Assembly (NCBI GenBank): GCA_951406725.2
Contig: OX597827.1
Coordinates: 64,356,001 to 64,420,000, forward strand
Source of the DNA: Octopus vulgaris
Taxonomy: Eukaryota
Reading direction: 5' to 3'
DNA: 64,000 bases
The translations under genes were made by a program, and so were the position numbers. Shown here one piece after another: positions 15,278 to 64,000 of this stretch (position 1 is the stretch's first letter; every line of letters starts with the position of its first letter). The notes beneath the pieces are model-generated. The model did not search any database and was not told where the DNA came from. It worked only from the letters and a program-made list of their open reading frames with translations.

Positions 15278-15278
<1 letters not shown>

Positions 15279-25285: not shown

Positions 25286-25294
25286 TGTCTGAAC

Positions 25295-28472: not shown

Positions 28473-28475
28473 AGG

Positions 28476-29290: not shown

Positions 29291-32200
29291 TTATTTGTAG
29301 ATTCTATTTATAGATTCTATTTATATATTCTATTTATAGATTCTATTTATAGATACTATTTATAGATTCTATTTATAGATTCTATTTATAGATTCTATTT
29401 ATAGATTCTATTTATAGATTCTATTTATAGATTCTATTTATAGATTCTATTTATAGATTCTATTTATAGATACAATTTATTTACTTATTTATTTATTTAG
29501 AGATTCTATTAACAGATTCTATTTATAGATTCTATTAATAGATTCTATTAATAGATTCTATTTATAGATTCTATTTATAGATTCTATTAATAGATTCTAT
29601 TTATAGATTCTATTTATAGATTCTATATATAGATTCTATTTATAGATTCTATTTATTTATTTATTTATTTATTTATAGATTCTATTAACAGATACTATTT
29701 ATAGATTCTATTAATAGATTCTATTAATAGATTATATTTATAGATTCTATTTATAGATTCTATTTATAGATTCTTTTTATAAATTCTATTTATAGATTCT
29801 ATTCATTTATTTATTTATTTATTTATAGATTCTATTTATAGATTCTTTTTATAGATTCTATTTATAGATGCTATTTATAGATTCTATTTATAGATTCTAT
29901 TTATAGATTCTATTTATAGATTCTATTTATAGATTCTATTTATAGATACAATTTATTTACTTATTTATTTATTTATAGATTCTATTTATAGATTCTATTT
30001 ATAGATTCTATTAATAGATTCTATTAATAGATTCTATTAATAGATTCTATTTATAGATACTATTTATAGATTCTATTTATAGATTCTATTTATAGATTCT
30101 ATTAATAGATTCTATTAATAGATTCTATTTATAGATTCTATTTATAGATTCTATTTATAGATTCTATTAATAGATTCTATTTATAGATTCTATTTATTTA
30201 TTAATTTATTTTTTAATTTATAGATTCTATTTATAGATACTATTTATAGATTCTATTAATAGATTCTATTTATAGATTCTATTTATAGATTCTATTTATA
30301 GATACAATTTATTTACTTATTTATTTATTTATAGATTCTATTAATAGATTCTATTTATAGATTCTATTAATAGATTCTATTAATAGATTCTATTTATAGA
30401 TTCTATTTATAGATTCTATTAATAGATTCTATTTATAGATTCTATTTATAGATTCTATATATAGATTCTATTTATAGATTCTATTTATTTATTAATTTAT
30501 TTTTTTATTTATAGATTCTATTTATAGATTCTATTTATAGATTCAATTTATAGATTCTATTTATAGATTCTATTTATAGATTCTATTTACTTATTTATTT
30601 ATAGATTCTATTTATTAATAGATTCTATTAATAGATTCTATTTATAGATTCTATTTATAGATTCTATTAATAGATTCTATTTATAGATTCTATTTATAGA
30701 TTCTAATTATAGATTCTATTTATAGATTCTATTTATAGATTCTATTTATAGATTCTATTTATAGATTCTATTTATAGATTCTATTAATAGATTCTATTTA
30801 TAGATTCTATTTATAGATTCTATTTATAGATTCTATTTATAGATTCTATTAATAGATTCTATTTATAGATTCTATTTATATATTCTATATATAGATTCTA
30901 TTTATAGATTCTATTTATTTATTTATTTATTTATTTATAGATTCTATTTATAGATTCTCTTTATAGATTCTATTTATAGATTCTATTTATAGATTCTATT
31001 TATAGATTCTATTTATAAATACAATTTATTTACTTATTTATTTATTTATAGATTCTATTAACAGATTCTATTTATAGATTCTATTAATAGATTCTATTTA
31101 TTTATTTATTTATTTATAGATTCTATTTATAGATTCTATTTATAGATTCTATTTATAGATTCTATTTATAGATTCTATTTATAGATTCTATTTATTTATT
31201 TATTTATTTATAGATTCTATTTATAGATTCTATTTATAGATTCTATTTATAAATTCTATTTATAGATTCAATTTATAGATTCTATTTATAGATACTATTT
31301 ATAGATTCTATTAATAGATTCTATTTATAGATTCTTTTTATAGATTCTATTTATAGATACAATTTATTTAATTATTTATTTATTTATAGATTCTATTAAT
31401 AGATTCTATTTATAGATTCTATTAATAGATTCTATTAATAGATTCTATTTATAGATTCTATTTATAGATTCTATTTATTTATTTATTTATTCATAGATTC
31501 TATTTATAGATTCTATATATAGATTCTATTTATAGATTCTATTTATTTATTAATTAATTTATTTATTTATAGATTCTATTTATAGATTCTATTTATAGAT
31601 TCTATTTATAGATTCTATTTATAGATTCTATTTATAGATTCTATTTATAGATTCTATTTACTTATTTATTTATAGATTCTATTTATTAATAGATTCTATT
31701 AATAGATTCTATTTATAGATTCTATTTATAGATTCTATTAATAGATTCTATTTATAGATTCTATTTATAGATTCTATATATAGATTCTATTTATAGATTC
31801 TATTTATTTATTTATTTATTTATTTATTTATAGATTCTATTTATAGATTCTATTTATAGATTCTATTTATAGATTCTATTTATAGATTCTATTTATAGAT
31901 TCAATTTATAGATTCTTTTTATAGATTCAATTAATAGATTCTATTAATAGATTCTATTTATAGATTCTATTAATAGATTCTATTTATAGATTCTATTTAT
32001 AGATTCTATTTATACATTCTATTTATAGATTCTATTTAGTTATTTATTTCTGTATTTATTTATTTATTTATAGATTCTATTTATAGATTATATTTATAGA
32101 TTCTATTTATAGATTCTATTTATAGATTCTATTTATAGATTCTATTTATAGATACAATTTATTTACTTATTTATTTATTTATAGATTCTATTTATAGATT

Positions 32201-34870
32201 CTATTTATAGATTCTATTAATAGATTCTATTAATAGATTCTATTTATAGATTCTATTTATAGATTCTATTAATAGATTCTATTTATAGATTCTATTTATA
32301 GATTCTATATATAGATTCTATTTATAGATTCTATTTATTTATTTATTTATTTATTTATTTATAGATTCTATTTATAGATTCTATTTATAGATTCTATTTA
32401 TAGATTCTATTTATAGATTCTATTTATAGATACAATTTATTTACTTATTTATTTATTTATAGATTCTATTTATAGATTCTATTTATAGATTCTATTTATA
32501 GATTCTATTAATAGATTCTATTTATAGATTCTATTAATAGATTCTATTAATAGATTCTATTTATAGATTCTATTTATAGATTCTATATATAGATTCTATT
32601 TATAGATTCTATTTATTTATTTATTTATTTATAGACTCTATTTATAGATTCTATTTATAGATTCTATTTATAGATTCTATTTATAGATTCTATTTATAGA
32701 TTCTATTTATAAATACAATTTATTTACTTATTTATTTATTTATAGATTCTATTAACAGATTCTATTTATAGATTCTATTAATATATTCTATTTATTTATT
32801 TATTTATTTATAGATTCTATTTATAGATTCTATTTATAGATTCTATTTATAGATTCTATTTATAGATTCTATTTATAGATTCTATTTATAGATTCTATTT
32901 ATTTATTTATTTATTTATAGATTCTATTTATAGATTCTATTTATAGATTCTATTTATAGATTCAATTTATAGATTCTATTTATAGATACTATTTATAGAT
33001 TCTATTAATAGATTCTATTTATAGATTCTTTTATAGATTCTATTTATAGATACAATTTATTTAATTATTTATTTATTTATAGATTCTATTAATAGATTCT
33101 ATTTATAGATTCTATTAATAGATTCTATTAATAGATTCTATTTATAGATTCTATTTATAGATTCTATTTATTTATTTATTTATTCATAGATTCTATTTAT
33201 AGATTCTATATATAGATTCTATTTATAGATTCTATTCATTTATTAATTAATTTATTTATTTATAGATTCTATTTATAGATTCTATTTATAGATTCTATTT
33301 ATAGATTCTATTTACTTATTTTTTTATAGATTCTATTTATTAATAGATTCTATTAATAGATTCTATTTATAGATTCTATTTATAGATTCTATTAATAGAT
33401 TCTATTTATAGATTCTATTTATAGATTCTATATATAGATTCTATTTATAGATACTATTTATTTATTTATTTATTTATTTATTTATAGATTCCATTTATAG
33501 ATTCTATTTATAGATTCTATTTATAGATTCTATTTATAGATTCTATTTATAGATTCTTTTTATAGATTCTATTAATAGATTCTATTAATAGATTCTATTT
33601 ATAGATTCTATTTATAGATTCTATTAATAGATTCTATTTATAGATTCTATTTATATATTCTATATATAGATTCTATTTATAGATTCTATTTATTTTTATT
33701 TTTTTATTTATTTATAGATTCTATTTATAGATTCTATTTATAGATTCTATTTATAGATTCTATTTATAGATTCTATTTATAGATACAATTTATTTACTTA
33801 TTTATTTATTTATAGATTCTATTAACAGATTCTATTTATAGATTCTATTAATAGATTCTATTAATAGATTCTATTTATAGATTCTCTTTATAGATTCTAT
33901 TAATAGATTCTATTTATAGATTCTATTTATAGATTCTATTTATAGATTCTATTTATAGATTCAATTTATTTATTTATTTATTTATTTATTTATAGATTCT
34001 ATTTATAGATTCTATTCATAGATTCTATTTATAGATTCTATTTATAGATTCTATTTATAGATTCTATTTATAGATTCTATTTATAGATACAATTTATTTA
34101 CTTATTTTTTTATTTATAGATTCTATTTATAGATTCTATTTATAGATTCTATTAATAGATTCTATTTATAGATTCTATTAATAGATTCTTTTAATAGATT
34201 CTATTAATAGATTCTATTAATAGATTCTATTTATAGATTCTATTTATAGATTCTATATATAGATTATATTTATAAATTCTATTTATTTATTTAGTTATAT
34301 ATAGATTCTATTTATAGATTCTATTTATAGATTCTATTTATAGATTCTATTTATAGATTCTATTTATAGATTCTATTTATAGATATAAATAGTATCTATA
34401 AATAGAATCTATAAATAGAATCTATAAATAAAAATAAATAAATAAATAAATAAATAGTATCTATAAATAGAATCTATAAATAGAATCTATAAATAGAATC
34501 TATAAATAGAATCTATCGATAGAATCTATAAATAGAATCTATAAATAGAATCTATAAATAGAATCTATAAATAAATAAATAAATAAATAAATATTATCTA
34601 TAAATAGAATCTATTAATAGAATCTATAAATAGAATCTATAAATAAATAAATAAATAAATAAATAAATAGAATCTATAAATAGAATCTATAAATAGAATC
34701 TATAAATAGAATCTATAAATAAATAAAAAAATAAATAAATAGAATTTATAAATAGAATCTATAAATAGAATCTATAAAAAGAATCTATAAATAAATAAAT
34801 AAATAAATAGTATCTATAAATAGAATCTATAAATAGAATCTATAAATAGAATCTATATATAAATTAATAA

Positions 34871-34910
<40 letters not shown>

Positions 34911-35146
34911 AAAGAATCTATTAATAGGATCTATAAATAGAATCTATAAATAGAATCTATAAATAGAATCTATAAATAGAATCTATAAATCGAATCTATA
35001 AATAGAATCTATAAATAGTATCTATAAATAGAATCTATAAATAGAATCTATAAGTAGAATCTATAAATAAATAAATAAATAAATAAATAATTAGTATCTA
35101 TAAAAATAATCTATAAAGAGAATCTATAAATAGAATCTATAAATAG
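29291..35146. repeat. Satellite D, 13-bp unit GATTCTATTTATA with (TTTA)n interruptions
   Basis: Forward up to ~34383, then reverse complement (TATAAATAGAATC). Confidence 0.98.
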
Positions 35147-38122
35147 ATTATGTATATATATGCCAATTAGGTATATATATATGCAAATTATGTATATATA
35201 TGCAAATTATGTATATATATATATGCAAATTATGTATTTATTTTTGCAAATTATGTATATATATATGCAAATTATGTATATATATATGCAAATTATGTAC
35301 ATATATATGCAAATTATGTATATATATATATATATATATGCAAATTATGTATATATATATGCAAATTATCTATATATATAAATATGAAATTATGTATATA
35401 TATGCAAATTATGTATATATATGCAAATTATGTATATATATATGCAAATTATGTATATATATATATATATATGCAAATTATGTATATATATATGAAAATT
35501 ATGTATATATATGCAAATTATGTATAGATATATTTAAATTATGTATATATATATGCAAATTATGTATATATATACATAATTTGCATATATATACATAATT
35601 TGCATATATATGCAAATTATGTATATATTTATGCAAATTATGTATATATATATGGAAATTATGTATATATATATGGACATTATGTATATATATATGCAAA
35701 TTATGTATATATATATATATGCAAATTATGTATATATATATGCAAATTATGTATATATATATATGCAAATTATGTATATATATATGCAAATTATGTATAT
35801 AAATATTCAAATTATGTATATATATATATGAGAATTATGTATATATATATGCAAATTATGTATATATATATTCAAATTATGTTTATATGCAAATTATGTA
35901 TATATATATGCAAATTATATATATATATTCAAATTACGTATATATATATGCAAATTATGTATATATATGCAAATTATGTATATATATGATAATTATGTAT
36001 ATATATATGCAAATTATGTATATATATATATAGCAAATTATGTATATATATATATGCAAATTATGTATATATTATATGCAAATTATATATATATGCAAAT
36101 TATGTATATATATATGCAAATTATGTATATATATATGCAAATTATGTATATATATATATATATGCAAATTATGTATATATATATGAAAATTATGTATATA
36201 TATGCAAATTATGTATAGATATATTTAAATTATGTATATATATATGCAAATTATGTATATATATACATAATTTGTATATATATACATAATTTGCATATAT
36301 ATGCAAATTATGTATATATTTATGCAAATTATGTATATATATATGGAAATTATGTATATATATATATGGACATTATGTATATATATATGCAAATTATGTA
36401 TATATATATATATGCAAATTATGTATATATATATGCAAATTATGTATATATATATATGCAAATTATGTATATATATATGCAAATTATGTATATAAATATT
36501 CAAATTATGTATATATATATGAGAATTATGTATATATATATGCAAATTATGTATATATATATGCAAATTATGTTTATATGCAAATTATGTATATATATAT
36601 GCAAATTATATATATATATTCAAATTACGTATATATATATGCAAATTATGTATATATATGCAAATTATGTATATATATGCAAATTATGTATATATATATG
36701 CAAATTATGTATATATATGCAAATTATGTATATATATATATGCAAATTATGTATATATATATGCAAATTACGTATATATATGCAAATTATGTATATATAT
36801 GCAAATTATGTATATATATATATGCAAATTATGTATATATATATATATGCAAATTATGTATATATATATATGAAAATTATGTATATATATGCAAATTATG
36901 TATAAATATATGCAAATTATGTATATATATATGCAAATTATGTATATATATATGCAAATTATGTATATATATGCCAATTATGTATATATATATGCAAATT
37001 ATGTATATATATATGCAAATTATGTATATATATATGCAAATTATGTATTTATTTTTGCAAATTATGTATATATATATGCAAATTATGTTTATATATATGC
37101 AAATTATGTATATATATATGCAAATTATGTATACATATATATATGCAAATTATGTATATATATATATGCAAATTATCTATATATATATATGAAATTATGT
37201 ATATATATGCAAATTATGTATATATAGATATGCAAATTATGTATATATATATATGCAAATTATGTATATATATGCAAATTATGTATTTATTTTTGCAAAT
37301 TATGTATATATATATGCAAATTATGTTTATATATATGCAAATTATGTATATATATATGCAAATTATGTATATATATATGCAAATTATCTATATATATATA
37401 TGAAATTATGTATATATATGCAAATTATGTATATATATGCAAATTATGTATATATATATATGCAAATTATGTATATATATATGCAAATTATGTATATATA
37501 TATGAAAATTATGTATATATATGCAAATTATGTATAGATATATGCAAATTATGTATATATATATGCAAATTATGTATATATATATGCAAATTATGTATAT
37601 TTAGATATGCAAATTATGTATATATATATGCAAATTATATATATATATATGCCAATTATGTATATATATATGCAAATTATGTATATATATATGCAAATTA
37701 TGTATATATATATTGAAATTAAGTATATATATATGCAAATTATGTATATATATATGCAAATTATGTATATATATATGCAAATTATGTATATATATATATG
37801 CAAATTATGTATATATATATGCAAATTATGTATATATATATATATGCAAATTATGTATATATATATGCAAATTATGTATATATATATGCAAATTATGTAT
37901 ATATATATGCAAATTATGTATATATATATATGCAAATTATGTATATAAATATTCAAATTATGTATATATATGCAAATTATGTATATATATATGCAAATTA
38001 TGTATATATATATGCAAATTACGTATATATATGCAAATTATGTATATATATGCAAATTATGTATATATATGCAAATTATGTATATATATATATGCAAATT
38101 ATGTATATATATATGCAAATTA
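35147..38122 (+). repeat. Satellite E block 1, unit TATGCAAATTATG(TA)n
   Basis: ~20-26-bp units with variable TA tract. Short inverted patches at ~35572 and ~36264. Confidence 0.98.
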
Positions 38123-39637
38123 ATATATTCTATTTATAGATTCTATTTATAGATTCTATTAATAGATTCTATTTATAGATTCTATTTATAGATTCTATAT
38201 ATAGATTCTATTTATAGATTCTATTTATTTATTTATTTATTTATAGATTCTATATATAGATTCTATTTATAGATTCTATTTATAGATTCTATTTATAGAT
38301 TCTATTTATAGATTCTATTTATAGATTATATTAATAGATTATATTAATAGATTCTATTTATAGATTCTATTTATAGATTCTATTTATAGATTCTATTAAT
38401 AGATTCCATTTATAGATTCTATTTATATATTCTATATATAGATTCTATTTATAGATTCTATTCATTTATTTATTTATTTATTTATTTATAGATTCTATTT
38501 ATAGATTCTATTTATAGATTCTATTTATAGATTCTATTTATAGATTCTATTTATAGATTCTTTTTATAGATTCTATTAAAAGATTCTATTAATAGATTCT
38601 ATTTATAGATTCTATTTATAGATTCTATTAATAGATTCTATTTATAGATTCTATTTATATATTCTATATATAGATTCTATTTATAGATTCTATTTATTTA
38701 TTTATTTATTTATTTATTTATAGATTCTATTTATAGATTCTATTTATAGATTCTATTTATAGATTCTATTTATAGATTCTATTTATAGATTCTATTTATA
38801 GATACAATTTATTTACTTATTTATTAATTTATAGATTCTATTAACAGATTCTATTTATAGATTCTATCAATAGATTCTATTAATAGATTCTATTTATAGA
38901 TTCTATTTATAGATTCTATTAATAGATTCTATTCATAGATTCTATTTATAGATTCTATATATAGATTCTATTTATAGATTCTATTTATTTATTTATTTAT
39001 TTATTTATAGATTCTATTTATAGATTCTATTTATAGATTCTATTTATAGATTCTATTTATAGATTCTATTTATAGATACAATATATTTATTTTTTTTATT
39101 TATAGATTCTATTTATAGATTCTATTTATAGATTCTATAATTAGATTCTATTTATAGATTCTATTAATAGATTCTATTAATAGATTCTATTAATAGATTC
39201 TATTTCTAGATTCTATTTATAGATTCTATAAATGGATTATATTTATATATTCTATTTATTTATTTATTTATTTATAGATTCTATTTATAGATTCTATTTA
39301 TAGTTTCTATTTATAGATTCTATTTATAAATTCTATTTATATATTCTATTTATAGATTCTATTAGTATCTATAAATAGAATCTATAAATAGAATCTATAA
39401 ATAAATAATTAAATAAATAAATAAATAGTATCTATAAATAGAATCTATAAATAGAATCTATAAATAGAATCTATAAATAAATAAATAAATAAATAAATAA
39501 ATAGAATCTATAAATAGTATCTATAAATAGAATCTATAAATAGAATCTATAAATAAATAAATAAATAAAGAGTATCTATAAATAGAATCTATAAATAGAA
39601 TCTATAAATAGAATCTATATATAAATAAATAAATGAA

Positions 39638-39668
<31 letters not shown>

Positions 39669-39905
39669 ATAGATTCTATTAATAGGATCTATAAATAGAA
39701 TCTATAAAAAGAATCTATAAATAGAATCTATAAATAGAATCTATAAATCGAATCTATAAATAGAATCTATAAATAGTATCTATAAATAGAATCTATAAAT
39801 AGAATCTATAAGTAGAATCTATAAATAAATAAATAAATAAATAAATAATTAGTATCTATAAATAGAATCTATAAAGAGAATCTATAAATAGAATCTATAA
39901 ATAGA
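38123..39905. repeat. Satellite D, forward then reverse (switch ~39363)
   Basis: Read directly. Confidence 0.97.
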
Positions 39906-51300: not shown

Positions 51301-51553
51301 ATAGAATCTATAAATAGAATCTATAAATAAATAAATAAATAAATAGTATTTATAAATAGAATCTATAAATAGAATCTATAAATAGAATCTATAAATAGAA
51401 TCTATAAATAGAATCTATAAGTAGAATCTATAAATAGAATCTATAAATAGAATCTATAAAAAGAATCTATAAATAAATAAATAAATAAATAGTATCTATA
51501 AATAGAATCTATAAATAGAATCTATAAATAGAATCTATACATAAATAAAAAAA

Positions 51554-51588
<35 letters not shown>

Positions 51589-52285
51589 ATAGAATCTATT
51601 AATAGGATCTATAAATATAATCTATAAATAGTATCTATAAATAGAATCTATAAACAGAATCTATAAATCGAATCTATAAATAGAATCTATAAATAGTATC
51701 TATAAATAGAATCTATAAATAGAATCTATAAATAGAATCTATAAATAAATAAATAAATAAATAAATAATTAGTATCTATAAATTGAATCTATAAAGAGAA
51801 TCTATAAATATAATCTATAAATAGAATCTATAAATAGAATCTATAAATAGAATCTATAAATAGTATCTATAAATAGAATCTATAAATAAATAAGTAAATA
51901 AATAAATAGAATCTATGAATAGAATCTATAAATAGAATCTGTAATTAGAATCTATAAATAGAATCTATAAATAGAATCTATAAATCGAATCTATTAATAG
52001 AATTTATAAATAGAATCTATAAATAGAATCTATAAATAGAATCTATAAATAGAATCTATAAATAAGTAAATAAATAAATAGTATCTATTAATAGAATCTA
52101 TAAGTAGAATCTATAAATAGAATCTATAAATAGAATCTATAAATAGAATCTATAAATAGAATCTATAAGTAGAATCTATAAATAGAATCTATAAATAGAA
52201 TCTATAAATAGAATCTATAAATAAATAAATAAATAAATAGTATCTATAAATAGAATCTATAAATAGAAACTATAAATAGAATCTA

Positions 52286-52328
<43 letters not shown>

Positions 52329-53761
52329 ATAGAATCTATTAATAGGATCTATAAATAGAATCTATAAATAGAATCTATAAATAGAATCTATAAATAGAAT
52401 CTATAAATAGAATCTATAAATAGTATCTATAAATAGAATCTATAAATAGAATCTATAAATAGAATCTATAAATAAATAAATAAATAAATAATTAGTATCT
52501 ATAAATAGAATCTATAAAGAGAATAAATAAATAGAAGCTATAAATAGAATCTATAAATAGAATCTATAAATAGTATCTTTAAATAGAATCTATAAATAGA
52601 ATCTATAAATAAATAAATAAATAAATAAATAGAATCTATAAATAGAATCTATAAATAGAATCTATAAATAGAATCTATAAATAGAATCTATAAATAAATA
52701 AATAAATATATAAATAGTATCTATAAATAGAATCTATAAATAGAATCTATAAATAGAATCTATAAATAGAACCTATAAATAGAATCTATAAATAGAATCT
52801 ATAAATAGAATATAATAAATAAATAAATAAATAAATAAATAAATAGTATCTCTAAATAGAATCTATAAATAGAATCTATAAATAGAATCTATAAATAGAA
52901 TCTATAAATAGAATCTATAAATAGAATCTATTAATAGAATCTATAAATAAATAAATAAATAAATAAATAAATAGTATCTATAAATAGAATCTATGAATAG
53001 AATCTATAAATAGAATCTATAAATAGAATCTATAAATAGAATCTATAAATAGAATCTATAAATAAATAAATAAATAAATAGTATGTATAAATAGAATCTA
53101 TAAATAGAATCTATAAAGAGAATCTATAAATAGAATCTATAAATAGAATCTATAAATAGAATGTATAAATAAATAAATAAATAAATAAATAGTATCTATA
53201 AATAGAATCTATAAATAGAATCTATAAATAGAATCTATAAATAGAATCTATAAATAGAATCTATAAATAAATAAATAAATAAATAAATAAATAGTATCTA
53301 TAAATAGAATCTATAAATAGAATCTATAAATAGAATCTATAAATAGAATCTATACATAGAATCTATAAATAGAATCTATAAATAGAATCTATAAATAGAA
53401 TCTATAAATAAATAAATAAATAAATAGTGTCTATAAATAGAATCTATAAATAGAATCTATAAATAAATAAATAAATAAATAAATAGAATCTATAAATAGT
53501 ATCTATAAATAGAATCTATAAATAGAATCTATAAATAAATAAATAAATAAATAGTATTTATAAATAGAATCTATAAATAGAATCTATAAATAGAATCTAT
53601 AAATAGAATCTATAAATAGAATCTATAAGTAGAATCTATAAATAGAATCTATAAATAGAATCTATAAAAAGAATCTATAAATAAATAAATAATTAAATAG
53701 TATCTATAAATAGAATCTATAAATAGAATCTATAAATAGAATCTATATATAAATAAAAAAA

Positions 53762-53796
<35 letters not shown>

Positions 53797-54501
53797 ATAG
53801 AATCTATTAATAGGATCTATAAATATAATCTATAAATAGTATCTATAAATAGAATCTATAAATAGAATCTATAAATCGAATCTATAAATAGAATCTATAA
53901 ATAGTATCTTTAAATAGAATCTATAAATAGAATCTATAAATAGAATCTATAAATAAATAAATAAATAAATAATTAGTATCTATAAATAGAATCTATAAAG
54001 AAATCTATAAATATAATCTATAAATAGAATCTATAAATAGAATCTATAAATAGAATCTATAAATAGTATCTATAAATAGAATCTATAAATAAATAAATAA
54101 ATAAATAAATAGAATCTATGAATAGAATCTATAAATAGAATCTATAATTAGAATCTATAAATAGAATCTATAAATAGAATCTATAAATCGAATCTATTAA
54201 TAGAATTTATAAATAGAATCTATAAATAGAATCTATAAATAGAATCTATAAATAGAATCTATAAATAAGAAAATAAATAAATAGTATCTATTAATAGAAT
54301 CTATAAGTAGAATCTATAAATAGAATCTATAAATAGAATCTATAAATAGAATCTATAAATAGAATATATAAATAGAATCTATAAGTAGAATCTATAAATA
54401 GAATCTATAAATAGAATCTATAAATAGAATCTATAAATAAATAAATAAATAAATAGTATCTATAAATAGAATCTATAAATAGAAACTATAAATAGAATCT
54501 A

Positions 54502-54536
<35 letters not shown>

Positions 54537-55405
54537 ATATATAAATAAATAAATAGAATCTATTAATATGATCTATAAATAGAATCTATAAATAGAATCT
54601 ATAAATAGAATCTATAAATAGAATCTATAAATAGAATCTATAAATAGTATCTATAAATAGAATCTATAAATAGAATCTATAAATAGAATCTATAAATAAA
54701 TAAATAAATAAATAATTAGTATCTATAAATAGAATCTATAAAGAGAATAGATAAATAGAAGCTATAAATAGAATCTATAAATAGAATCTATAAATAGTAT
54801 CTTTAAATAGAATCTATAAATAGAATCTATAAATAAATAAATAAATAAATAAATAGAATCTATAAATAGAATCTATAAATAGAATCTATAAATAGAATCT
54901 ATAAATAGAATCTATAAATAAATAAATAAATATATAAATAGTATCTATAAATAGAATCTATAAATAGAATCTATAAATAGAATCTATAAATAGAACCTAT
55001 AAATAGAATCTATAAATAGAATCTATAAATAGAATATATAAATAAATAAATAAATAAATAAATAAATAGTATCTCTAAATAGAATCTATAAATAGAATCT
55101 ATAAATAGAATCTATAAATAGAATCTATAAATAGAATCTATAAATAGAATCTATAAATAGAATCTATAAATAAATAAATAAATAAATAGTATCTATAAAT
55201 AGAATCTATGAATAGAATCTATAAATAGAATCTATAAATAGAATCTATAAATAGAATCTATAAATAAGGAAATAAATAAATAAATAAATAAATAAATAGA
55301 ATCTATAAATAGTATCTATAAATAGAATCTATAAATAGAATCTATAAATAAATAAATAAATAAATAGAATCTATAAATAGAATCTATAAATAGAATCTAT
55401 AATTA
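48393..55405. repeat. Satellite D, forward up to ~51288 then reverse, with an ~2.2-kb internal duplication
   Basis: Rare variants recur ~2.2 kb apart: AGAAGCTATA at ~52533 and ~54757, GAACCTATA at ~52769 and ~54993, TATCTCTAAA at ~52847 and ~55070. Confidence 0.97.
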
Positions 55406-55990
55406 GATTCCTTCCTCCCATTCCTCCGACTTCCTCCCGGTTTGAACCAGTTTGAGCCGGATTGAACCGGTTTGAACCAGTTTGAACCAGTTTGAACTGG
55501 TTTGATCTGGTTTGAACTGGTTTGACCCTGTTTGAACCGGTTTGAACCGGTTTGTACTGGTATGACCCGGTTTGAACCGGTTTGAAATGGTTTGACCTGG
55601 TTTGAACCTGTTTGAACCAGTTTGAACGGGTTTGATACGGTTCAAAGTGGACCAAACCGGTACAAACCGAATAAACCGGTTCAAACCGGATCAAAATGTT
55701 TGATGAAAATGTTTGATGAAAATGTTTGATGAAAATGTTTGATGAAAATTTTTGATGAAAATGTCTGATGAAAATGTCTGATGAAAAATGTTTGATGAAA
55801 ATGTCTAATGAAAAACGTTTGATGAAAGTGTTTGAACTGGTTTGATCCGGTTTGAACCGGTGTGAACCAGTTTGAACCAGTTGGAACCGTTTTGAATTGG
55901 TTAGATCCGGTTTGAACTTGTTTGATGTGGTTGATCCGGTTTGAGCCGGCTTGAACCTGTTTAATGTTTGATGAAAATGTCTGATGAAAT
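55406..55990. repeat. Junction cassette: C fragment, B, A, B, A (second copy)
   Basis: Homologous to 28540-29290. Confidence 0.92.
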
Positions 55991-56077
55991 TTATTTATTT
56001 ATAGATTCTATTTATCGATTCAATTTTATAGATTCTATTTATAGATTCTATTTACAGATTCTATTGATAGATTCTAT

Positions 56078-56112
<35 letters not shown>

Positions 56113-58652
56113 TAGATTCTATTTATAGATTCTATTTATAGATTCTATATATAGATACTATTTATAGATTCTATTTATAGATTATATTTATAGATACTAT
56201 TTATAGATTTGAACCAGTTTGAACCGGTTTGAACCAGTTTGAACCGGTTTGAACTGGTTTGACCCGGTTTGAACCGGTTTGAATTTATAGCTACTATTTA
56301 TAGATTCTATTTATAGATTCTATTTATAGATTCTATTTATAGATTCTATTTATAGATTCTATTAATAGATTCTATTTATAGATTCTATTTATTTATTTAT
56401 TTATTTATAGATTCTATTTATAGATTCTATTTATAGATTCTATTTATAGATACTATTTATAGATTCTATTTATAGATTCTATATATAGATTCTAATTATA
56501 AATTCTATTTATAGATTCTATTCATTTATTTATTTATTTATTTATTTATAGATTCTATTTATAGATTCTATTTATAGATTCTATTTATATATTTATTTAT
56601 TTATTTATAGATTCTATATATAGATTCTATTTATAGATTCTATTTATAGATTCTATTTATAAATTCTATTTATAGATTCTATTCATTTATTTATTTATTT
56701 ATTTATTTATAGATTCTATTTATAGATTCTTTTTATAGATTCTATTTATAGATTCTATTTATAGATTCTATTTATAGATTCTCTTTATAGATTCTATTTA
56801 TAGATTCTATTTATAGATTCTATTTATAGATACAATTTATTTACTTATTTTTTTATTTATAGATTCTATTTATAGATTCTATTTAAGGATTCTATTAATA
56901 GATTCTATTTATAGATTCTATTAATAGATTCTATTAATAGATTCTATTAATAGATTCTATTTATAGATTCTATTTATAGATTCTATATATAGATTCTATT
57001 TATAGATTCTATTTATTTATTTATTTATTTATAGATTCTATTTATAGATTCTATTTATAGATTCTATTTATAGATTCTATTTATAGATTCTATTAGTATC
57101 TATAAATAGAATCTATAAATAGAATCTATAAATAAATAAATAAATAAATAGTATTTATAAATAGAATCTATAAATAGAATCTATAAATAGAATCTATAAA
57201 TAGAATCTATAAATAGAATCTATAAGTAGAATCTATAAATAGAATCTATAAATAGAATCTATAAAAAGAATCTATAAATAAATAAATAAATAAATAGTAT
57301 CTATAAATAGAATCTATAAATAGAATCTATAAATAGAATCTATACATAAATATTCTATTTATTTATTTATTTTTTTATTTATTTATTTATTTATTTTTTT
57401 ATTTATGTATAGATTCTATTTATAGATTCTATTTATAGATTCTATTTATAGATACTATTTATTTATTTATTTATTTATAGATTCTTTTTATAGATTCTAT
57501 TTATAGATTCTATTTATAGATTCTACTTATAGATTCTATTTATAGATTCTATTTATAGATTCTATTTATAGATTCTATTTATAGATTCTATTTATAAATA
57601 CTATTTATTTATTTATTTATTTATAGAATCTTTTTATAGATTCTATTTATAGATACTAATAGAATCTATAAATAGAATCTATAAATAGAATCTATAAATA
57701 GAATCTATAAATAGAATCTATAAATAAATAAATAAATAAATAGAATCTATAAATAGAATCTATATATAGAATCTATAAATAGAATCTATAAATAGAATCT
57801 ATTAATAGAATCTATTAATAGAATCTATTAATAGAATCTATAAATAGAATCTATTAATAGAATCCTTAAATAGAATCTATAAATAGAATCTATAAATAAA
57901 AAAATAAGTAAATAAATTGTATCTATAAATAGAATCTATAAATAGAATCTATAAATAGAATCTATAAATAGAATCTATAAATAGAATCTATAAATAGAAT
58001 CTATAAATAGAATCTATAAAAAGAATCTATAAATAGAATCTATAAATAAATAAATAAATAAATAAATGAATAGAATCTATAAATAGAATTTATAAATAGA
58101 ATCTATAAATAGAATCTATAAATAGAATATATATATAGAATCTATAAATAAATAAATAAATATATAAATAGAATCTATAAATAGAATCTATAAATAGAAT
58201 CTATAAATAGAATCTATAAATAAATAAATAAATAAATAAATGAATAGAATCTATAAATAGAATTTATAATTAGAATCTATATATAGAATCTATAAATAGA
58301 ATCTATAAATAGTATCTATAAATAGAATCTATAAATAGAATCTATAAATAGAATCTATAAATAAATAAATAAATAAATAGAATCTATAAATAGAATCTAT
58401 TAATAGAATCTATAAATAGAATCTATAAATAGAATCTATAAATAGAATCTATAAATAGAATCTATAAATAGTAGCTATAAATTCAAACCGGTTCAAACCG
58501 GGTCAAACCAGTTCAAACCGGTTCAAACTGGTTCAAACCGGTTCAAACTGGTTCAAATCTATAAATAGTATCTATAAATATAATCTATAAATAGAATCTA
58601 TAAATAGTATCTATATATAGAATCTATAAATAGAATCTATAAATAGAATCTA

Positions 58653-58687
<35 letters not shown>

Positions 58688-58775
58688 ATAGAATCTATCA
58701 ATAGAATCTGTAAATAGAATCTATAAATAGAATCTATAAAATTGAATCGATAAATAGAATCTATAAATAAATAAA
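55991..58775. repeat. Satellite D containing the centre of the giant palindrome and two mirrored B inserts
   Basis: B inserts at ~56208-56283 and ~58482-58557. Symmetry centre ~57376. Confidence 0.95.
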
Positions 58776-59268
58776 TTTCATCAGACATTTTCATCAAACA
58801 TTAAACAGGTTCAAGCCGGCTCAAACCGGATCAACCACATCAAACAAGTTCAAACCGGATCTAACCAATTCAAAACGGTTCCAACTGGTTCAAACTGGTT
58901 CACACCGGTTCAAACCGGATCAAACCAGTTCAAACACTTTCATCAAACGTTTTTCATTAGACATTTTCATCAAACATTTTTCATCAGACATTTTCATCAG
59001 ACATTTTCATCAAAAATTTTCATCAAACATTTTCATCAAACATTTTCATCAAACATTTTCATCAAACATTTTGATCCGGTTTGAACCGGTTTTATTCGGT
59101 TTGTACCGGTTTGGTCCACTTTGAACCGTATCAAACCCGTTCAAACTGGTTCAAACAGGTTCAAACCGGGTCAAACCATTTCAAACCGGTTCAAACCGGG
59201 ACATACCAGTACAAACCGGTTCAAACCGGTTCAAACAGGGTCAAACCAGTTCAAACCAGATCAAACCA
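58776..59268 (-). repeat. Inverted copy of the 55490-55990 A/B cassette
   Basis: Near-exact reverse complement, including the rare variants GGTTCAAAGTGGACC and GGTGTGAACC. Confidence 0.95.
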
Positions 59269-60391
59269 CTATTTATTTATTTATTTATTTATAGATTCTA
59301 TTTATAGATTCTATTTATAGATTCTATTTATAGATTCTATGTATAGATTCTATTTATAGATTCTATTTATAGATTCTATTTATAGATTCTATTTATAGAT
59401 ACTATTTATTTATTTATTTATTTATTTATTTATAGATTCTATTTATAGATTCTATTTATAGATTCTATTTATAGATTCTATTTATAGATTCTATTTATAG
59501 ATACTATTTATTTATTTATTTATTTATTTATACATTCTATTTATAGATTCTATTTATAGATTCTATTTATAGATTCTATTTATAGATTCTCTTTATAGAT
59601 TCTATTTATAGATTCTATTTATACATACTATTTATTTATTTATTTATTTATAGATTCTATTTATAGATTCTATTTATAGATTCTATTTATAGATTCTATT
59701 TATAGATTCTATTCATAGATTCTATTTATAGATACTATTTATTTATTTATTTATTTATTTATAGATTCTATTAATAGATTCTATTTATAGATTCTATTTA
59801 TAGATTCTATTTATAGATTCTATTTATAGATTCTATTTATAGATTCTATTTAGAGATACTATTTATTTATTTATTTATTTATTTATATATTCTATTTATA
59901 GATTCTATTTATAGATTCTATTTATAGATTCTATTTATAGATTCTATTTATAGATTCTATTTATAGATTCTATTTATAGATATTATTTATATATTTATTT
60001 ATTTATTTATTTATAGATTCTATTTATAGATTCTATTTATAGATTCTATTTATAGATTCTATTTATAGATTCTATTTATTTATTTATTTATTTATTTATA
60101 GATTCTATTTATAGATTCTATTTATAGATACTATTTATAGATTCTATTTATAGATTCTATTTATAGCTTCTATTTATCTATTCTATTTATAGATTCTATT
60201 TATAGATACTAATTATTTATTTATTTATTTATTTATAGATTCTATTTATAGATTCTATTTATAGATTCTATTTATAGATACTATTTATAGATTCTATTTA
60301 TAGATTCTATTTATAGATTCTATTTATAGATTCTATTTATAGATTCTATTTATAGATCATATTTATAGATTCTATTTATTTATTTATATAT

Positions 60392-60426
<35 letters not shown>

Positions 60427-61129
60427 TAGATTCTATTTATAGTTTCTATTTATAGATTCTATTTATAGATACTATTTATTTATTTATTTATTTATAGATT
60501 CTATTTATAGATTCTATTTATAGATTCTATTTATAGATTCTATTATAGATTCTATTTATATATTCTATTTATAGATTCTATTTATAGATTCTATTTATAG
60601 ATTCTATTTATAGATTCTATTATAGATTCTATTAATAGATACTATTTATTTATTTTCTATTTATAGATTCTATTTATAGATTCTATTTATAGATTCTATT
60701 TATAGATTCTATTTATAAATTCTATTAATAGATTCGATTTATAGATTCTATTTATAGATTCTATTTATAGATTCTAATTATAGATTCTATTTATAGATTC
60801 TATTCATAGATTCTATTTATTTATTTATTTATTTATTTATAGATTCTATTTATAGATACTATTTATAGATTCTATTTATAGATTCTATTTATAGATTCTA
60901 TTTATAGATTATATTTATAGATTCTCTTTATAGATTCTATTTATAGATACTAATTATTTATTTATTTATTTATTTATAGATTCTATTTATAGATTCTATT
61001 TATAGATTCTATTTAAAGATTCTATTTATAGATTCTATTTATAGATTCGATTTATAGATTCTATTTATAGATTCTATTTATAGATACTATTTATAGATTA
61101 TATTTATAGATCCTATTAATAGATTCTAT

Positions 61130-61164
<35 letters not shown>

Positions 61165-61940
61165 TTTTATTTATATATAGATTCTATTTATAGATTCTAT
61201 TTATAGATTCTATTTATAGATACTATTTATTATTTATTTATTTATAGATTCTTTTATAGATTCTATTTATAGATTCTATTTATAGATTCTATTTATAGAT
61301 TCTATTTATAGATTCTATTTATAGATTCTATTTATAGATTCTATTTATAGATTCTATTTATAAATTTATTTATTTATTTATTTATTTATAGATTCTATTT
61401 ATAGATTCTATTTATAGATACTATTTATAGATTCTATTTATTTATTTATTTATTTATTTATAGATTCTATTTATAGATTCTATTTATAGATTCACTATTT
61501 ATTTATTTATTTATTTATAGATTCTATTTATAGATTCTATTTATAGATTCTATTTATAGATTCTATGTATAGATTCTATTTATAGATTCTATTTATAGAT
61601 TCTATTTATAGATTCTATTTATAGATACTATTTATTTATTTATTTATTTATTTATAGATTCTATTTATAGATTCTATTTATAGATTCTGTTTATAGATTC
61701 TATTTATAGATTCTATTTATAGATACTATTTATTTATTTATTTATTTATTTATACATTCTATTTATAGATTCTATTTATAGATTCTATTTATAGATTCTA
61801 TTTATAGATTCTATTTATAGATTCTATTTATACATACTATTTATTTATTTATTTATTTATAGATTCTATTTATAGATTCTATTTATAGATTCTATTTATA
61901 GATTCTATTTATAGATTCTATTTATAGATTCTATTTATAG

Positions 61941-61972
<32 letters not shown>

Positions 61973-62586
61973 TAGATTCTATTTATAGATTCTATTTATA
62001 GATTCTATTTATAGATTCTATTTATAGATTCTATTTATAGATTCTATTTATAGATTCTATTTAGAGATACTATTTATTTATTTATTTATTTATTTATTTA
62101 TATATTCTATTTATAGATTCTATTTATAGATTCTATTTATAGGTTCTATTTATAGATTCTATTTATAGATTCTATTTATAGATTCTATTTATAGATATTA
62201 TTTATTTATATTTATTTATTTATTTAGATTCTATTTATAGATTCTATTTATAGATTCTATTTATAGATTCTATTTATAGATTCTATTTATTTATTTATTT
62301 ATTTATTTATAGATTCTATTTATAGATTCTATTTAAAGATACTATTTATAGATTCTATTTATAGATTCTATTTATAGCTTCTATTTATTTATTCTCTTTA
62401 TAGATTCTATTTATAGATACTAATTATTTATTTATTTATTTATTTATAGATTCTATTTATAGATTCTATTTATAGATTCTATTTATAGATACTATTTATA
62501 GATTCTATTTATAGATTCTATTTATAGATTCTATTTATAGATTCTATTTATAGATTCTATTTATAGATCCTATTAATAGATTCTAT

Positions 62587-62625
<39 letters not shown>

Positions 62626-63321
62626 TAGATTCTATTTATAGTTTCTATTTATAGATTCTATTTATAGATACTATTTATTTATTTATTTATTTATAGATTC
62701 TATTTATAGATTCTATTTATAGATTCTATTTATAGATTCTACTTATAGATTCTATTTATAGATTCTATTTATAGATTCTATTTATAGATTCTATTTATAG
62801 ATTCTACTTATAGATTCTATTAATAGATACTATTTATTTATTTACTTATTTATAGATTCTATTTATAGATTCTATTTATAGATTCTATTTATAGATTCTA
62901 TTTATAAATTCTATTAATAGATTCATTTATAGATTCTATTTATAGATTCTATTTATAGATTCTAATTACAGATTCTATTTATAGATTCTATTCATAGATT
63001 CTATTTATTTATTTATTTATTTATTTATAGATTCTATTTATAGATACTATTTATAGATTCTATTTATAGATTCTATTTATAGATTCTATTTATAGATTAT
63101 ATTTATAGATTCTCTTTATAGATTCAATTTATAGATACTAATTATTTATTTATTTATTTATTTATTTATAGATTCTATTTATAGATTCTATTTATAGATT
63201 CTATTTATAGATACTATTTATAGATTCTATTTATAGATTCGATTTATAGATTCTATTTATAGATTCTATTTATAGATACTATTTATAGATTATATTTATA
63301 GATCCTATTAATAGATTCTAT

Positions 63322-63366
<45 letters not shown>

Positions 63367-64000
63367 TTTATGTATAGATTCTATTTATAGATTCTATTTA
63401 TAGATTCTATTTATAGATACTATTTATTTATTTATTTATTTATAGATTCTTTTTATAGATTCTATTTATAGATTCTATTTATAGATTCTACTTATAGATT
63501 CTCTTTATAGATTCTATTTATAGATTCTATTTATAGATTCTATTTATAGATTCTATTTATAAATACTATTTATTTATTTATTTATTTATAGATTCTATTT
63601 ATAGATTCTATTTATAGATACTAATAGAATCTATAAATAGAATCTATAAATAGAATCTATAAATAGAATCTATAAATAGAATCTATAAATAAATAAATAA
63701 ATAAATAGAATCTATAAATAGAATCTATATATAGAATCTATAAATAGAATCTATAAATAGAATCTATTAATAGAATCTATAAATAGAATCTATAAATAGA
63801 ATCTATTAATAGAATCTATTAATAGAATCTATAAATAGAATCTATTAATGGAATCTATAAATAAATAAATAAGTAAATAAATTGTATCTATAAATAGAAT
63901 CTATAAATAGAATCTATAAATAGAATCTATTAATAGAATCTAATAGAATCTATTAATAGAATCTATAAATAGAATCTATTAATAGAATCTATAAATAGAA
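59269..64000. repeat. Satellite D, right arm of the giant palindrome, running off the window
   Basis: Rare variants mirror those at ~50900-55200. Confidence 0.95.

What the first reader, a model, noticed from the sequence alone, without database searches (positions are those of the whole stretch)
29291..64000. Satellite D: on the order of 1,500 perfect MEF2 boxes in a quasi-palindromic 13-mer
Seen: each unit contains CTATTTATAG, and the frequent variants CTATTAATAG and CTATATATAG also fit CTA(A/T)4TAG. The count is a rough estimate from ~24 kb at 13 bp per unit, less the (TTTA)n tracts. Established: CTA(A/T)4TAG is the MEF2 MADS-box consensus, and the opposite strand reads TATAAATA, a TATA box. 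The unit joins two imperfect palindromes (ATAGA-T-TCTAT, CTAT-TT-ATAG), so it should fold back easily. Inference: potential MEF2 or TBP sink, and a hairpin-prone array.
Basis: partly seen in the sequence, partly recalled or inferred. Interest (0 to 1): 0.72.

Follow-up and report, generated by a model that had tools for sequence, protein, structure and literature searches.

The report
AT-rich octopus-type satellite spelling MEF2 sites
This stretch is a 13-letter repeat DNA family of an octopus-type genome whose unit happens to spell the binding site of the muscle and nerve regulator MEF2 1,143 times; the site letters mutate as freely as the other letters, so the match is likely a by-product of an ordinary, inversion-prone satellite and not a maintained protein trap.

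Summary
Window 29291-64000 holds 1,143 exact CTA(A/T)4TAG matches, not about 1,500. Shuffled sequence gives about 9 in the whole window. The region is not one satellite. It holds 24.2 kb of the 13-mer (D) in both orientations, 9.5 kb of an unrelated 21-mer (E) and 1 kb of two other repeats.

D is a multi-locus satellite family, seen on at least seven chromosome-scale contigs. This locus lies in a ~106-kb composite satellite island.

The genome encodes a MEF2 whose DNA-binding exon is 65 of 67 residues identical to human MEF2A, so binding in vitro is likely.

I found no selection for the site:
- Box-breaking substitutions are as common as box-preserving ones (36 versus 25 locally amplified variants, p 0.22).
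- In a sister satellite (G) that carries CTAAAAATAG, box and linker positions vary equally.
- A shuffled unit gives a MEF2 box 0.5% of the time, but it matches one of only 30 recalled consensus motifs of 12 bits or more 31% of the time.

The hairpin inference holds in silico. The array carries eight D-to-D orientation switches and a ~6-kb-arm palindrome, but non-palindromic neighbours flip too.

Verdict: an ordinary satellite and a new member of a known kind. MEF2 occupancy is untested.

The parts
29291..34380 (+). Satellite D, + orientation (13-mer CTATTTATAG+ATT), interrupted by CTA(TTTA)nTAG expansions
34390..35152 (-). Satellite D, - orientation; the junction at about 34380 has its own sequence
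35153..38120 (+). Satellite E, unrelated 21-mer TATATATATGCAAATTATGTA; no MEF2 boxes
38121..39929 (.). D+ (to about 39360), then D- after a fold-back junction at 39353; second copy of the about 4.7-kb D+/D-/E composite
39930..42810 (+). Satellite E block 2
42811..44769 (.). D+ then D-, same junction 30-mer at 44056; third copy of the composite
44770..48390 (+). Satellite E block 3
48391..51290 (+). Satellite D, + orientation
51279..51308 (+). Fold-back junction 30-mer TAGATTCTATTAGTATCTATAAATAGAATC. It has 6 copies in the whole genome, all in this window (39353, 44056, 51279, 57084 on +; 57639, 63604 on -)
   Evidence: hairpin fold (z -10.0)
51300..55436 (-). Satellite D, - orientation; outer part of the left palindrome arm
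55437..55990 (+). Short block of 10-mer CCGGTTTGAA and 13-mer GATGAAAATGTTT repeats inside the left arm
55991..57340 (.). D+ (56002-57084), then D- (57107-57334); inner part of the left arm
57341..57405 (.). Palindrome centre (about 57372): T-rich (TTTA)n-like spacer between D- and D+. Arms of 6,000 bp are 98.8% identical in aligned columns (71 mismatches, 46 gap events)
   Evidence: (z -13.8)
57406..58799 (.). D+ (57410-57637), then D- (57660-58755); inner part of the right arm
58800..59270 (-). Inverted copy of the 10-mer/13-mer block
59271..63610 (+). Satellite D, + orientation; outer part of the right arm
63611..64000 (-). D- after the junction at 63604; it continues about 3.9 kb into the next stretch (L001), followed by 10-mer/13-mer repeats, D+ and a 58-mer array

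Best explanation
Satellite D is a non-coding, 87% A+T, 13-bp satellite DNA family whose unit spells a perfect MEF2 consensus; the site is likely an unselected by-product of the unit, not a maintained protein-binding function.

Shown:
- D forms tens-of-kb arrays on several chromosomes, always inside patchworks with other short satellites (E, G, a 10-mer, a 13-mer, a 58-mer).
- Each locus has its own amplified variants, which indicates local homogenisation.
- This locus was built by local direct and inverted segmental duplications. These are an about 4.7-kb D+/D-/E composite present three times, a palindrome with about 6-kb arms, and one fold-back junction copied six times and found nowhere else in the genome.
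- The (TTTA)n tracts are slippage-type expansions of the box core.

Inferred:
- Arrays grow and shrink by unequal exchange and replication slippage.
- Inversions arise by fold-back template switching or hairpin-capped break repair.
- The unit's near self-complementarity (D+ and D- differ at 3 of 13 positions) may favour inversions, but it is not required for them.
- The octopus-type MEF2, and TBP or AT-hook proteins, would bind naked D DNA. No sequence evidence indicates that such binding shapes the repeat.
For: Tandem structure and mosaic.

Multi-locus family:
- 893 + 940 exact 3-unit matches genome-wide against 0 for the reversed control. The window holds 213 + 84 of them.
- Six-unit matches on C1, C13 (two loci), C14, C15, C17 and C18 (100 of 181 listed). 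Three-unit matches also on C8.

Locus-specific amplified variants: CTATTAATAG 134 of 1,258 at C14; ATATTTATAG 54 of 767 at the C18 end; CTATTTATTG 18 of 224 at C8.

No box-specific constraint:
- Window, N = 995 flank-anchored units. Non-consensus counts for positions 1-13 are 15, 22, 28, 19, 46, 131, 3, 18, 9, 34, 9, 1, 50. W>S changes are 5.1 and 4.1 per breaking site against 3.7 and 0.67 per linker site.
- Pooled, N = 4,012: same picture.
- 61 locus-level amplified single substitutions: 36 box-breaking and 25 preserving, against a 26:13 expectation (binomial p 0.22).
- Pooled copies per possible substitution: median 20 (breaking) against 16 (preserving), Mann-Whitney p 0.70.
- Sister satellite G: non-consensus per site is 11.6 in the box against 11.4 in the linker (N = 330), and 21.8 against 20.8 (N = 566).

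Chance: 0.54% of shuffled units give a MEF2 box. But 31.5% hit at least one of only 30 recalled consensus motifs of 12 bits or more, and 3.7% hit one of 16 bits or more.

Local duplication history.

Core expansions.

Independent DNA runs: three studies of one organism hold 0.24-0.35 of the sampled words, one of which may be the source sample.
Against: - The match is to a long (16-bit) consensus. The neighbouring, probably homologous, satellite G carries CTAAAAATAG, reported as the highest-affinity 10-mer for MEF2B in SELEX (PMC7470950, passages).
- The three commonest variants at this locus (T6>A, T13>A, T5>A) all keep the box.
- A MEF2 with a near-identical DNA-binding exon exists.
- Absence of per-site constraint does not exclude binding. 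With thousands of redundant sites, selection on any one site would be negligible, and homogenisation alone keeps the consensus.
- Variant counts are copies, not independent events.
- Notes by earlier agents on other unit types of this genome reported the opposite trend (AI notes, unchecked).
- Occupancy, chromatin state and transcription were not testable.
Confidence: 0.72

Rival explanations
1. Transcription-factor platform or sink. D (and G) arrays are bound by MEF2 in muscle or neurons and act as a hub or titrating reservoir, as proposed for Human Satellite 3 and TEAD. TBP could be bound likewise through TATAAATA.
For: - 1,143 strict boxes in 34.7 kb, about 1,170 times the density seen in 70.8 kb of non-satellite DNA (2 boxes).
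- G carries the optimal 10-mer.
- The MEF2 exon is 65 of 67 identical to human MEF2A residues 17-83.
- A schistosome (flatworm) Mef2 binds CTATTTTTAG, CTAAAAATAG and CTATATATAG by EMSA (PMC3250504, passages).
- Precedent of TF-bound satellites: PMC11526998 (abstract).
Against: - No box-specific constraint in D or G.
- Box-destroying core expansions are tolerated 165 times.
- Arrays are tens of kb, not megabases.
- The sampled satellite stretches plus the window hold about 6,150 strict boxes. A very rough 8x10^4 are expected genome-wide from background density (n = 2 hits), and far more under YTAW4TAR. A titrating effect would therefore be modest.
- A motif match of some kind is common for shuffled units.
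Confidence: 0.1
2. Generic AT-rich heterochromatin satellite. D would be bound by AT-hook or HMG-type satellite-binding proteins through its 8-bp W runs and help bundle chromatin, independent of the exact MEF2 spelling. The D1/HMGA1 precedent is recalled, not read here.
For: - 87% A+T.
- Every unit has TATTTATA.
- It co-occurs with other AT-rich satellites (E, G) in islands on several chromosomes.
- Per-site indifference to the MEF2 half-sites fits a composition-level readout.
Against: No protein, chromatin or imaging data. D is absent, as perfect 3-unit runs, from C2-C7 and C9-C12 in the ordered listing, so it is not a universal chromosomal element. Total amount is small (inferred to be about 150-300 kb).
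Confidence: 0.12
3. Dyad symmetry is what the amplification mechanism favours. Short near-palindromic units are easier to slip, fold back and copy, and because dimeric transcription factors read dyads, such satellites look like TF sites without being selected for them.
For: - D is a double quasi-palindrome and folds (z -4.8 to -7.6). The 10-mer satellite is also dyad-symmetric and folds (z -10.3).
- The C18-end satellite contains GCGCATGCGC.
- The two frequent C14 variants, CTATTAATAG and CTATATATAG, are exactly the two perfect palindromes reachable from the box by one change. That is the direction expected for quasipalindrome template-switch mutation (PMC7202029, abstract in the listing).
- Link between inverted repeats and dimeric TFs: PMC13100816 (abstract in the listing).
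Against: - The palindrome-perfecting variants are common only at C14 (165 and 54 of 1,258) and rare elsewhere, so they look like a few amplified events and not a recurrent hotspot.
- G, E, the 58-mer and the 13-mer B are not dyad-symmetric, and G and the 58-mer do not fold, yet they are equally successful satellites.
- Orientation switches occur in G (4 in about 15 kb) and E (19 in about 19.5 kb), against D's 32 in about 65 kb.
Confidence: 0.15
4. Part of the large-scale structure (palindrome, inversions, triplicated composite) is an assembly artefact of long-read fold-back or chimeric reads, not real genome structure.
For: - Satellite arrays are error-prone to assemble.
- 100-N runs sit in five of the other fetched stretches.
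- The junction 30-mer is confined to this one locus.
Against: - Palindrome arms differ (71 mismatches and 46 gap events in 6 kb), and composite copies are 96-98% identical, not identical.
- Similar orientation switches recur at independent loci.
- The satellite words themselves are present in runs from more than one study.
- Read-level support was not examined.
Confidence: 0.1

Closest known systems
Human Satellite 3 as a transcription-factor binding platform (Franklin et al., PMC11526998; abstract read)
   Same: A tandem satellite whose short unit carries very many copies of a consensus site for a signalling or developmental transcription factor.
   Different: HSat3 arrays are megabase-scale, and binding (TEAD, YAP) was shown by screens, imaging and sequencing. 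Here arrays are tens of kb, nothing is known about occupancy, and the site letters show no excess conservation.
Canonical MEF2 sites, YTAW4TAR / CTAWWWWTAG (PMC7470950 and PMC3250504; passages read)
   Same: CTATTTATAG, CTATTAATAG and CTATATATAG all fit the strict consensus. CTATATATAG and G's CTAAAAATAG / CTATTTTTAG are sequences shown to be bound by Mef2 proteins in those papers.
   Different: Known functional sites are single or few, in enhancers and promoters. Here there are 1,143 in phase-shifting runs of mean 3.6 units, in non-coding repeat DNA with no gene in view.
Quasipalindrome-associated template-switch mutagenesis and fold-back inversions (PMC7202029 and PMC8604942; abstracts in the listing)
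   Same: Imperfect inverted repeats that can form hairpins, variants that make the dyad perfect, and inversion junctions with spacers of a few bases.
   Different: Those studies concern single loci in bacteria and yeast. Here the substrate is a tandem array. The perfecting variants are locus-restricted, and non-palindromic neighbours invert as well.
The patchwork of short satellites noted by earlier agents in this same genome (e1-9501265, e1-8662695, e1-8662736, e1-9513861, e1-8669500; AI notes)
   Same: Same island type. My satellite E is the 21-bp POU-octamer repeat of e1-9501265. The 10-mer, 13-mer and 58-mer blocks flank D here.
   Different: Those notes report that spreading variants tend to spare the sites in some unit types. 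For D and G I find no such bias.

Membership tests
MEF2 binding site | Sequence fits CTA(A/T)4TAG (strict) or YTAW4TAR (wide) | tested here: met
   1,143 strict and 1,330 wide matches in 29291-64000. Consensus taken from PMC7470950 and PMC3250504 passages.
MEF2 binding site | A MEF2 protein with a conserved MADS/MEF2 DNA-binding domain is encoded by the genome | tested here: met
   PF00319 hits on C4. The L029 exon is 65 of 67 identical to human MEF2A residues 17-83 (3kov_A, E 3e-40). A second MEF2-type exon is in L030.
MEF2 binding site | Half-sites (CTA/TAG) evolve more slowly than unconstrained neighbouring positions | tested here: not met
   D: (36 breaking against 25 preserving amplified variants, p 0.22; Mann-Whitney p 0.70). 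G: box 11.6 against linker 11.4, and 21.8 against 20.8, non-consensus per site.
MEF2 binding site | Occupied by MEF2 in vivo or bound in vitro | not testable with these tools
   No ChIP, CUT&RUN or EMSA data available.
Satellite DNA family | Long head-to-tail arrays of one unit, at several loci, with locus-specific homogenised variants | tested here: met
   TRF; loci on C1, C8, C13, C14, C15, C17, C18; locus-specific top variants.
TF-platform satellite (HSat3 type) | Megabase-scale arrays with demonstrated TF binding | tested here: not met
   This locus holds 24.2 kb of D in the window plus about 7 kb beyond it. The largest locus seen is over 80 kb of mixed D/G/E. Binding is untestable.
Centromeric satellite | Present at one main locus on every chromosome | tested here: inconclusive
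   The ordered listing of 3-unit matches jumps C1 > C8 > C13. There are two loci on C13 and at least three on C18. Counts are lower bounds, and only the first 100 rows of each listing were shown.
TATA box / core promoter | TATAWAWR plus transcription starting downstream | tested here: inconclusive
   TATAAATA occurs 1,216 times. 6.3% of shuffled units also give TATAWAWR. Transcription was not testable.
Hairpin- or cruciform-forming quasipalindrome | A single strand folds better than composition-matched shuffles; extrusion in supercoiled DNA | tested here: met
   First part met: z -4.8, -5.7, -7.6, with 0 of 200 shuffles as good. Stability is low (-15 to -27 kcal/mol per 104-130 nt). Extrusion is not testable here.

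The most novel reading that the evidence does not exclude
D and its sister G are MEF2-docking satellites. They would be part of an octopus-lineage patchwork in which each block type is an array of near-ideal sites for one developmental transcription factor (MEF2, POU, Grainyhead/CP2-like, TEAD-like). The arrays would gather or titrate these factors in muscle and neurons, and factor binding itself, not per-site selection, would promote their amplification.
Probability: 0.08. Interest if true: 0.75.

Novelty: new member of a known kind. Interest (0 to 1): 0.3.

Why it matters
If the ordinary reading holds, the value is cautionary and descriptive. A perfect 16-bit transcription-factor consensus repeated over a thousand times can be a by-product of satellite amplification, and a simple per-position test can show that. 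The locus also records how a short-unit satellite grows, through core microsatellite expansion, a single fold-back junction copied six times, a triplicated composite and a 6-kb-arm palindrome. If the bold reading holds, cephalopods would offer a second, independent case of satellites acting as transcription-factor platforms.

Tried and rejected
- blastn self-comparison of 28001-64000 timed out. It was replaced by rare 36-mer diagonals and targeted global alignments.
- Gapless perfect-palindrome extension found no arm of 40 bp or more, because all junctions have small asymmetric spacers.
- No regular higher-order repeat. Lag-13 identity of 0.81-0.84 decays within about 6 units because core expansions shift the phase; secondary peaks lie at 13k+7.
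- Flank comparison of islands for a shared transposon-like boundary gave only other satellites and dispersed SINE-like repeats (output largely cut).
- D is not related to the other 13-mer, GATGAAAATGTTT: 7 of 13 matches at best, reached by 4,818 of 5,000 shuffles.
- No convincing coding ORF in window 1-15400.
- Sequencing runs: no RNA holder listed.
Read-level support for junctions is therefore open.
- Earlier-findings look-ups by place (near) and by sequence gave nothing on point.
- Literature. 'mef2' + 'satellite dna' + 'binding sites': 26 papers, and none of the 15 listed is on a MEF2-box satellite. Octopus and cephalopod satellite searches: nothing on point among the 15 and 12 listed. The four 10-mers: 211 papers, and none of the 20 listed concerns a satellite.
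- Centromere reading: considered and left inconclusive (see membership test).

Full report
**1. What is in the sequence**

The window is C14:64,356,001-64,420,000 of a 2.8-Gb, 227-contig animal genome. Earlier scan notes call it octopus-type (AI notes), and I did not try to name it further.

TRF reports a period-13 array over 29292-63992 with consensus TATTTATAGATTC. Written box-first, the unit is CTATTTATAG + ATT.

In 29291-64000 the motif CTA(A/T)4TAG occurs 1,143 times:
- 644 CTATTTATAG
- 317 CTATAAATAG (the same box in arrays of the opposite orientation)
- 139 CTATTAATAG
- 38 CTATATATAG
- 5 others

The whole window has 1,148, against 8.57 +/- 2.71 in 100 dinucleotide shuffles. Under the wider consensus YTAW4TAR the region has 1,330. 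TATAAATA occurs 417 times on + and 799 times on -.

**2. The region is a mosaic, not one satellite**

Diagnostic words in 250-bp bins and run-length parsing give these blocks:
- D+ 29291-34380
- D- to 35152
- E (21-mer TATATATATGCAAATTATGTA) 35153-38120
- D+/D- 38121-39929
- E 39930-42810
- D+/D- 42811-44769
- E 44770-48390
- D+ 48391-51290
- D- 51300-55436
- a 10-mer/13-mer block 55437-55990
- D+/D- 55991-57340
- a T-rich centre near 57372
- D+/D- 57406-58799
- the inverted 10-mer/13-mer block 58800-59270
- D+ 59271-63610
- D- to the window end

D-type DNA totals 24,215 bp, or 1,863 unit-equivalents, and 61% of these carry a perfect box. Boxes lie in 314 in-phase runs (mean 3.6 units, maximum 19). 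There are 165 exact (TTTA)n>=3 tracts, 3.5 kb in all. These tracts are expansions of the box core itself, CTA(TTTA)nTAG, so they destroy the MEF2 spacing. They also shift the phase, so there is no regular higher-order repeat.

**3. Large-scale history of the locus**

Rare 36-mers define direct diagonals at about 4.7-4.84 kb (the D+/D-/E composite, three copies) and about 2.2 kb. They also define an inverted diagonal centred at about 57372-57460, with arms running from about 50.9 kb.
- Six-kb arms align at 98.8% identity in aligned columns, with 71 mismatches and 46 gap events.
- The composite copies are 96-98% identical.
- I did not align unrelated D blocks as a baseline, so the rare-word diagonals are the stronger evidence for these duplications.

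There are 8 direct D-to-D orientation switches. Six of them use the same 30-mer junction, which occurs 6 times in the whole genome, all in this window. This fits one fold-back event that was later copied by direct and inverted duplication. The junctions and the centre fold as long hairpins with short loops (z -10.0 and -13.8).

**4. Surroundings and relatives**

The locus is the middle of a ~106-kb composite satellite island, running from window 15381 to about C14:64,477,000. Its order is:
- 13-mer, 10-mer and 58-mer blocks
- the D/E mosaic, which runs about 7 kb past the window end
- about 42 kb of the 58-mer
- 10-mer and 13-mer blocks

. No convincing ORF lies in window 1-15400.

D is a family. 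Exact 3-unit matches number 893 + 940 genome-wide (a lower bound; the reversed control gives 0), and the window holds 213 + 84 of them. Matches lie on:
- C1 (15.08 Mb)
- C8 (91.73 Mb)
- C13 (65.36 and 65.51-65.54 Mb)
- C14 (this locus)
- C15 (30.18-30.20 Mb)
- C17 (53.62-53.65 Mb)
- C18 (9 to over 91 kb from the contig start, 6.42 Mb and 20.25 Mb)

A further 81 six-unit matches were not listed. The ordered listing shows none on C2-C7 or C9-C12.

At C8, C13 and C18 (6.4 Mb), D alternates with E. At C1, C15 and C18 it alternates with a further satellite, G. G has 18- and 20-bp units, CTATTTTTAG+TTGCTGTT and CTATTTTTAG+TTTATTTGTY, which read CTAAAAATAG on the other strand. D and G units align better than shuffles do (14 and 18 of 1,000 shuffles reach the score), so they are probably homologous.

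**5. Is the MEF2 box maintained?**

The trans factor exists. PF00319 finds three MADS exons. The exon in L029 is 65 of 67 identical to human MEF2A residues 17-83, and L030 holds a second MEF2-type exon. From passages I read:
- the family consensus is YTAW4TAR, and CTAAAAATAG was the top 10-mer for MEF2B (PMC7470950);
- a schistosome Mef2 binds CTATTTTTAG, CTAAAAATAG and CTATATATAG in EMSA (PMC3250504).

Binding of naked D and G DNA is therefore likely, but this is inferred.

For selection I used units chosen only by their two flanking units (each within 1 mismatch of the consensus), so the central unit is unbiased.

Window, N = 995. Non-consensus counts at positions 1-13:

| Position | 1 | 2 | 3 | 4 | 5 | 6 | 7 | 8 | 9 | 10 | 11 | 12 | 13 |
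|---|---|---|---|---|---|---|---|---|---|---|---|---|---|
| Non-consensus | 15 | 22 | 28 | 19 | 46 | 131 | 3 | 18 | 9 | 34 | 9 | 1 | 50 |

- The best-kept position is linker T12.
- Within matched mutation classes, box-breaking changes are not rarer. W>S transitions are 5.1 per breaking site against 3.7 per linker site. W>S transversions are 4.1 against 0.67. W>W medians are 7 against 7.

Ten locus groups, N = 4,012. The picture is the same, and the variants amplified at other loci often break the box:
- CTATTTATTG at C8
- CTATGTATAG and CTATTGATAG at C13
- CTATTTAAAG at C15
- ATATTTATAG and CTATTTGTAG at the C18 end

Amplified variants. Of 61 single-substitution variants with at least 5 copies in a locus group, 36 break and 25 keep the strict box. 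The expectation is 26:13 (binomial p 0.22). Pooled copies per possible substitution have a median of 20 (breaking) against 16 (preserving), Mann-Whitney p 0.70.

Satellite G, which has an 8-10-bp linker and so more power. Non-consensus per site is 11.6 in the box against 11.4 in the linker (N = 330), and 21.8 against 20.8 (N = 566, leaving out the polymorphic last position).

Two caveats apply. The counts are copies, not independent events. And with thousands of redundant sites, selection on single sites would be very weak even if binding mattered.

**6. How surprising is the match?**

Units shuffled with the same base counts give a MEF2 box 0.54% of the time.
- 31.5% of the time for motifs of 12 bits or more
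- 9.9% for motifs of 14 bits or more
- 3.7% for motifs of 16 bits or more

A full motif library would raise these figures. The real unit also hits TATAWAWR and a loose FOX string.

As a sink, the arrays are modest. The window and the 30 fetched satellite-locus stretches together hold about 6,150 strict boxes. Background density (2 in 70.8 kb, so very rough) suggests about 8x10^4 genome-wide, and there are far more wide-consensus sites.

**7. Hairpins and inversions**

D+ and D- differ at only 3 of 13 positions (5, 6 and 12), which can be read directly from the unit. Single-stranded D folds with z -4.8, -5.7 and -7.6, and 0 of 200 shuffles did as well. The absolute stability is low (-15 to -27 kcal/mol per 104-130 nt).

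The two commonest box variants at this locus are exactly the two perfect palindromes one step from the box. That is the direction expected from quasipalindrome template switching (PMC7202029, abstract in the listing). But they are frequent only at C14, so they look like a few events amplified locally.

Orientation switches are not specific to D:

| Satellite | Abutting switches | Approximate kb |
|---|---|---|
| D | 32 | 65 |
| E | 19 | 19.5 |
| G | 4 | 15 |
| 58-mer | 1 | 36 |

G and the 58-mer do not fold as single strands (-1.1 and -3.0 kcal/mol) yet have fold-back junctions. So the unit's dyad symmetry may help inversion but is not needed for it.

**8. Comparison and verdict**

D works like any short-unit satellite. 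It meets the tested criteria of a satellite DNA family. It meets the sequence criterion for a MEF2 site and the requirement that the factor is encoded, but it fails the conservation criterion. Occupancy is untested.

The closest functional precedent is Human Satellite 3 as a TEAD platform (PMC11526998, abstract). D differs from it in scale and in having no binding data.

Earlier agents' notes on this genome describe the same patchwork and suggested that spreading variants spare the sites in some unit types. For D and G I find no such bias.

I found no paper describing a MEF2-box satellite or these cephalopod satellites in the listings I saw.

I rate D a new member of a known kind, of low to moderate interest. 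The bold reading, a MEF2-docking satellite, is kept at about 8%.

Noticed in passing
window 35153-38120, 39930-42810, 44770-48390: Satellite E, a 21-mer TATATATATGCAAATTATGTA. Each unit contains ATGCAAAT (recalled as the POU octamer). It always lies downstream of a D- block here, and it alternates with D at C8, C13 and C18 as well.
   Followed up: partly
L009, L010 (C1:15.078-15.098 Mb); L015, L016 (C15); L019-L023, L032 (C18): Satellite G, with 18- and 20-bp units carrying CTAAAAATAG. That is the top-affinity MEF2B 10-mer of PMC7470950. G is interleaved with D and flips orientation without being palindromic.
   Followed up: yes
window 25294-28475: A 58-mer satellite (contains GGAATGTTCAA) switches to its reverse complement at 27455 through a junction that folds as a long hairpin (z -11.4). 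The same 58-mer fills about 42 kb to the right of the D array (L001-L005).
   Followed up: partly
L031 (C18:1-9000): The contig start is about 9 kb of a GC-rich repeat of about 22 bp containing the palindrome GCGCATGCGC (recalled as an NRF1-type site). It is followed directly by over 80 kb of D/G/E arrays. There are no TTAGGG dimers in the first 10 kb.
   Followed up: partly
L029 (C4:77,300,286-77,303,405) and L030 (C4:15,047,768-15,050,887): Two MEF2-type MADS/MEF2-domain exons on one chromosome. The second is diverged (..[36 protein letters not shown]..), so it is possibly a paralogue. A third MADS hit on C10 covers the full domain model, unlike the two C4 hits, which begin at model position 9; I take it to be SRF-like, but I did not check this.
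   Followed up: partly
L017, L018 (C17:53.62-53.65 Mb): D blocks of alternating orientation are separated by kb-scale stretches of 2-8% G+C, presumably runaway (TTTA)n-like expansions of the box core.
   Followed up: no
window 5579-6012; window 10861-12180: A 217-bp dispersed-repeat-like unit is present twice in tandem (94% match); it reminded me of an octopus SINE (recalled). There is also a 1.3-kb (ATGT)n microsatellite at 97% purity.
   Followed up: no
L012, L013, L018, L025, L027: Each of these fetched stretches contains a run of exactly 100 N. These may be assembly gaps or withheld letters, so array lengths at those loci may be understated.
   Followed up: no
window 28477-28541: A five-unit seed of D (- orientation) sits alone between the 58-mer and 10-mer blocks, 750 bp before the main array starts.
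   Followed up: no
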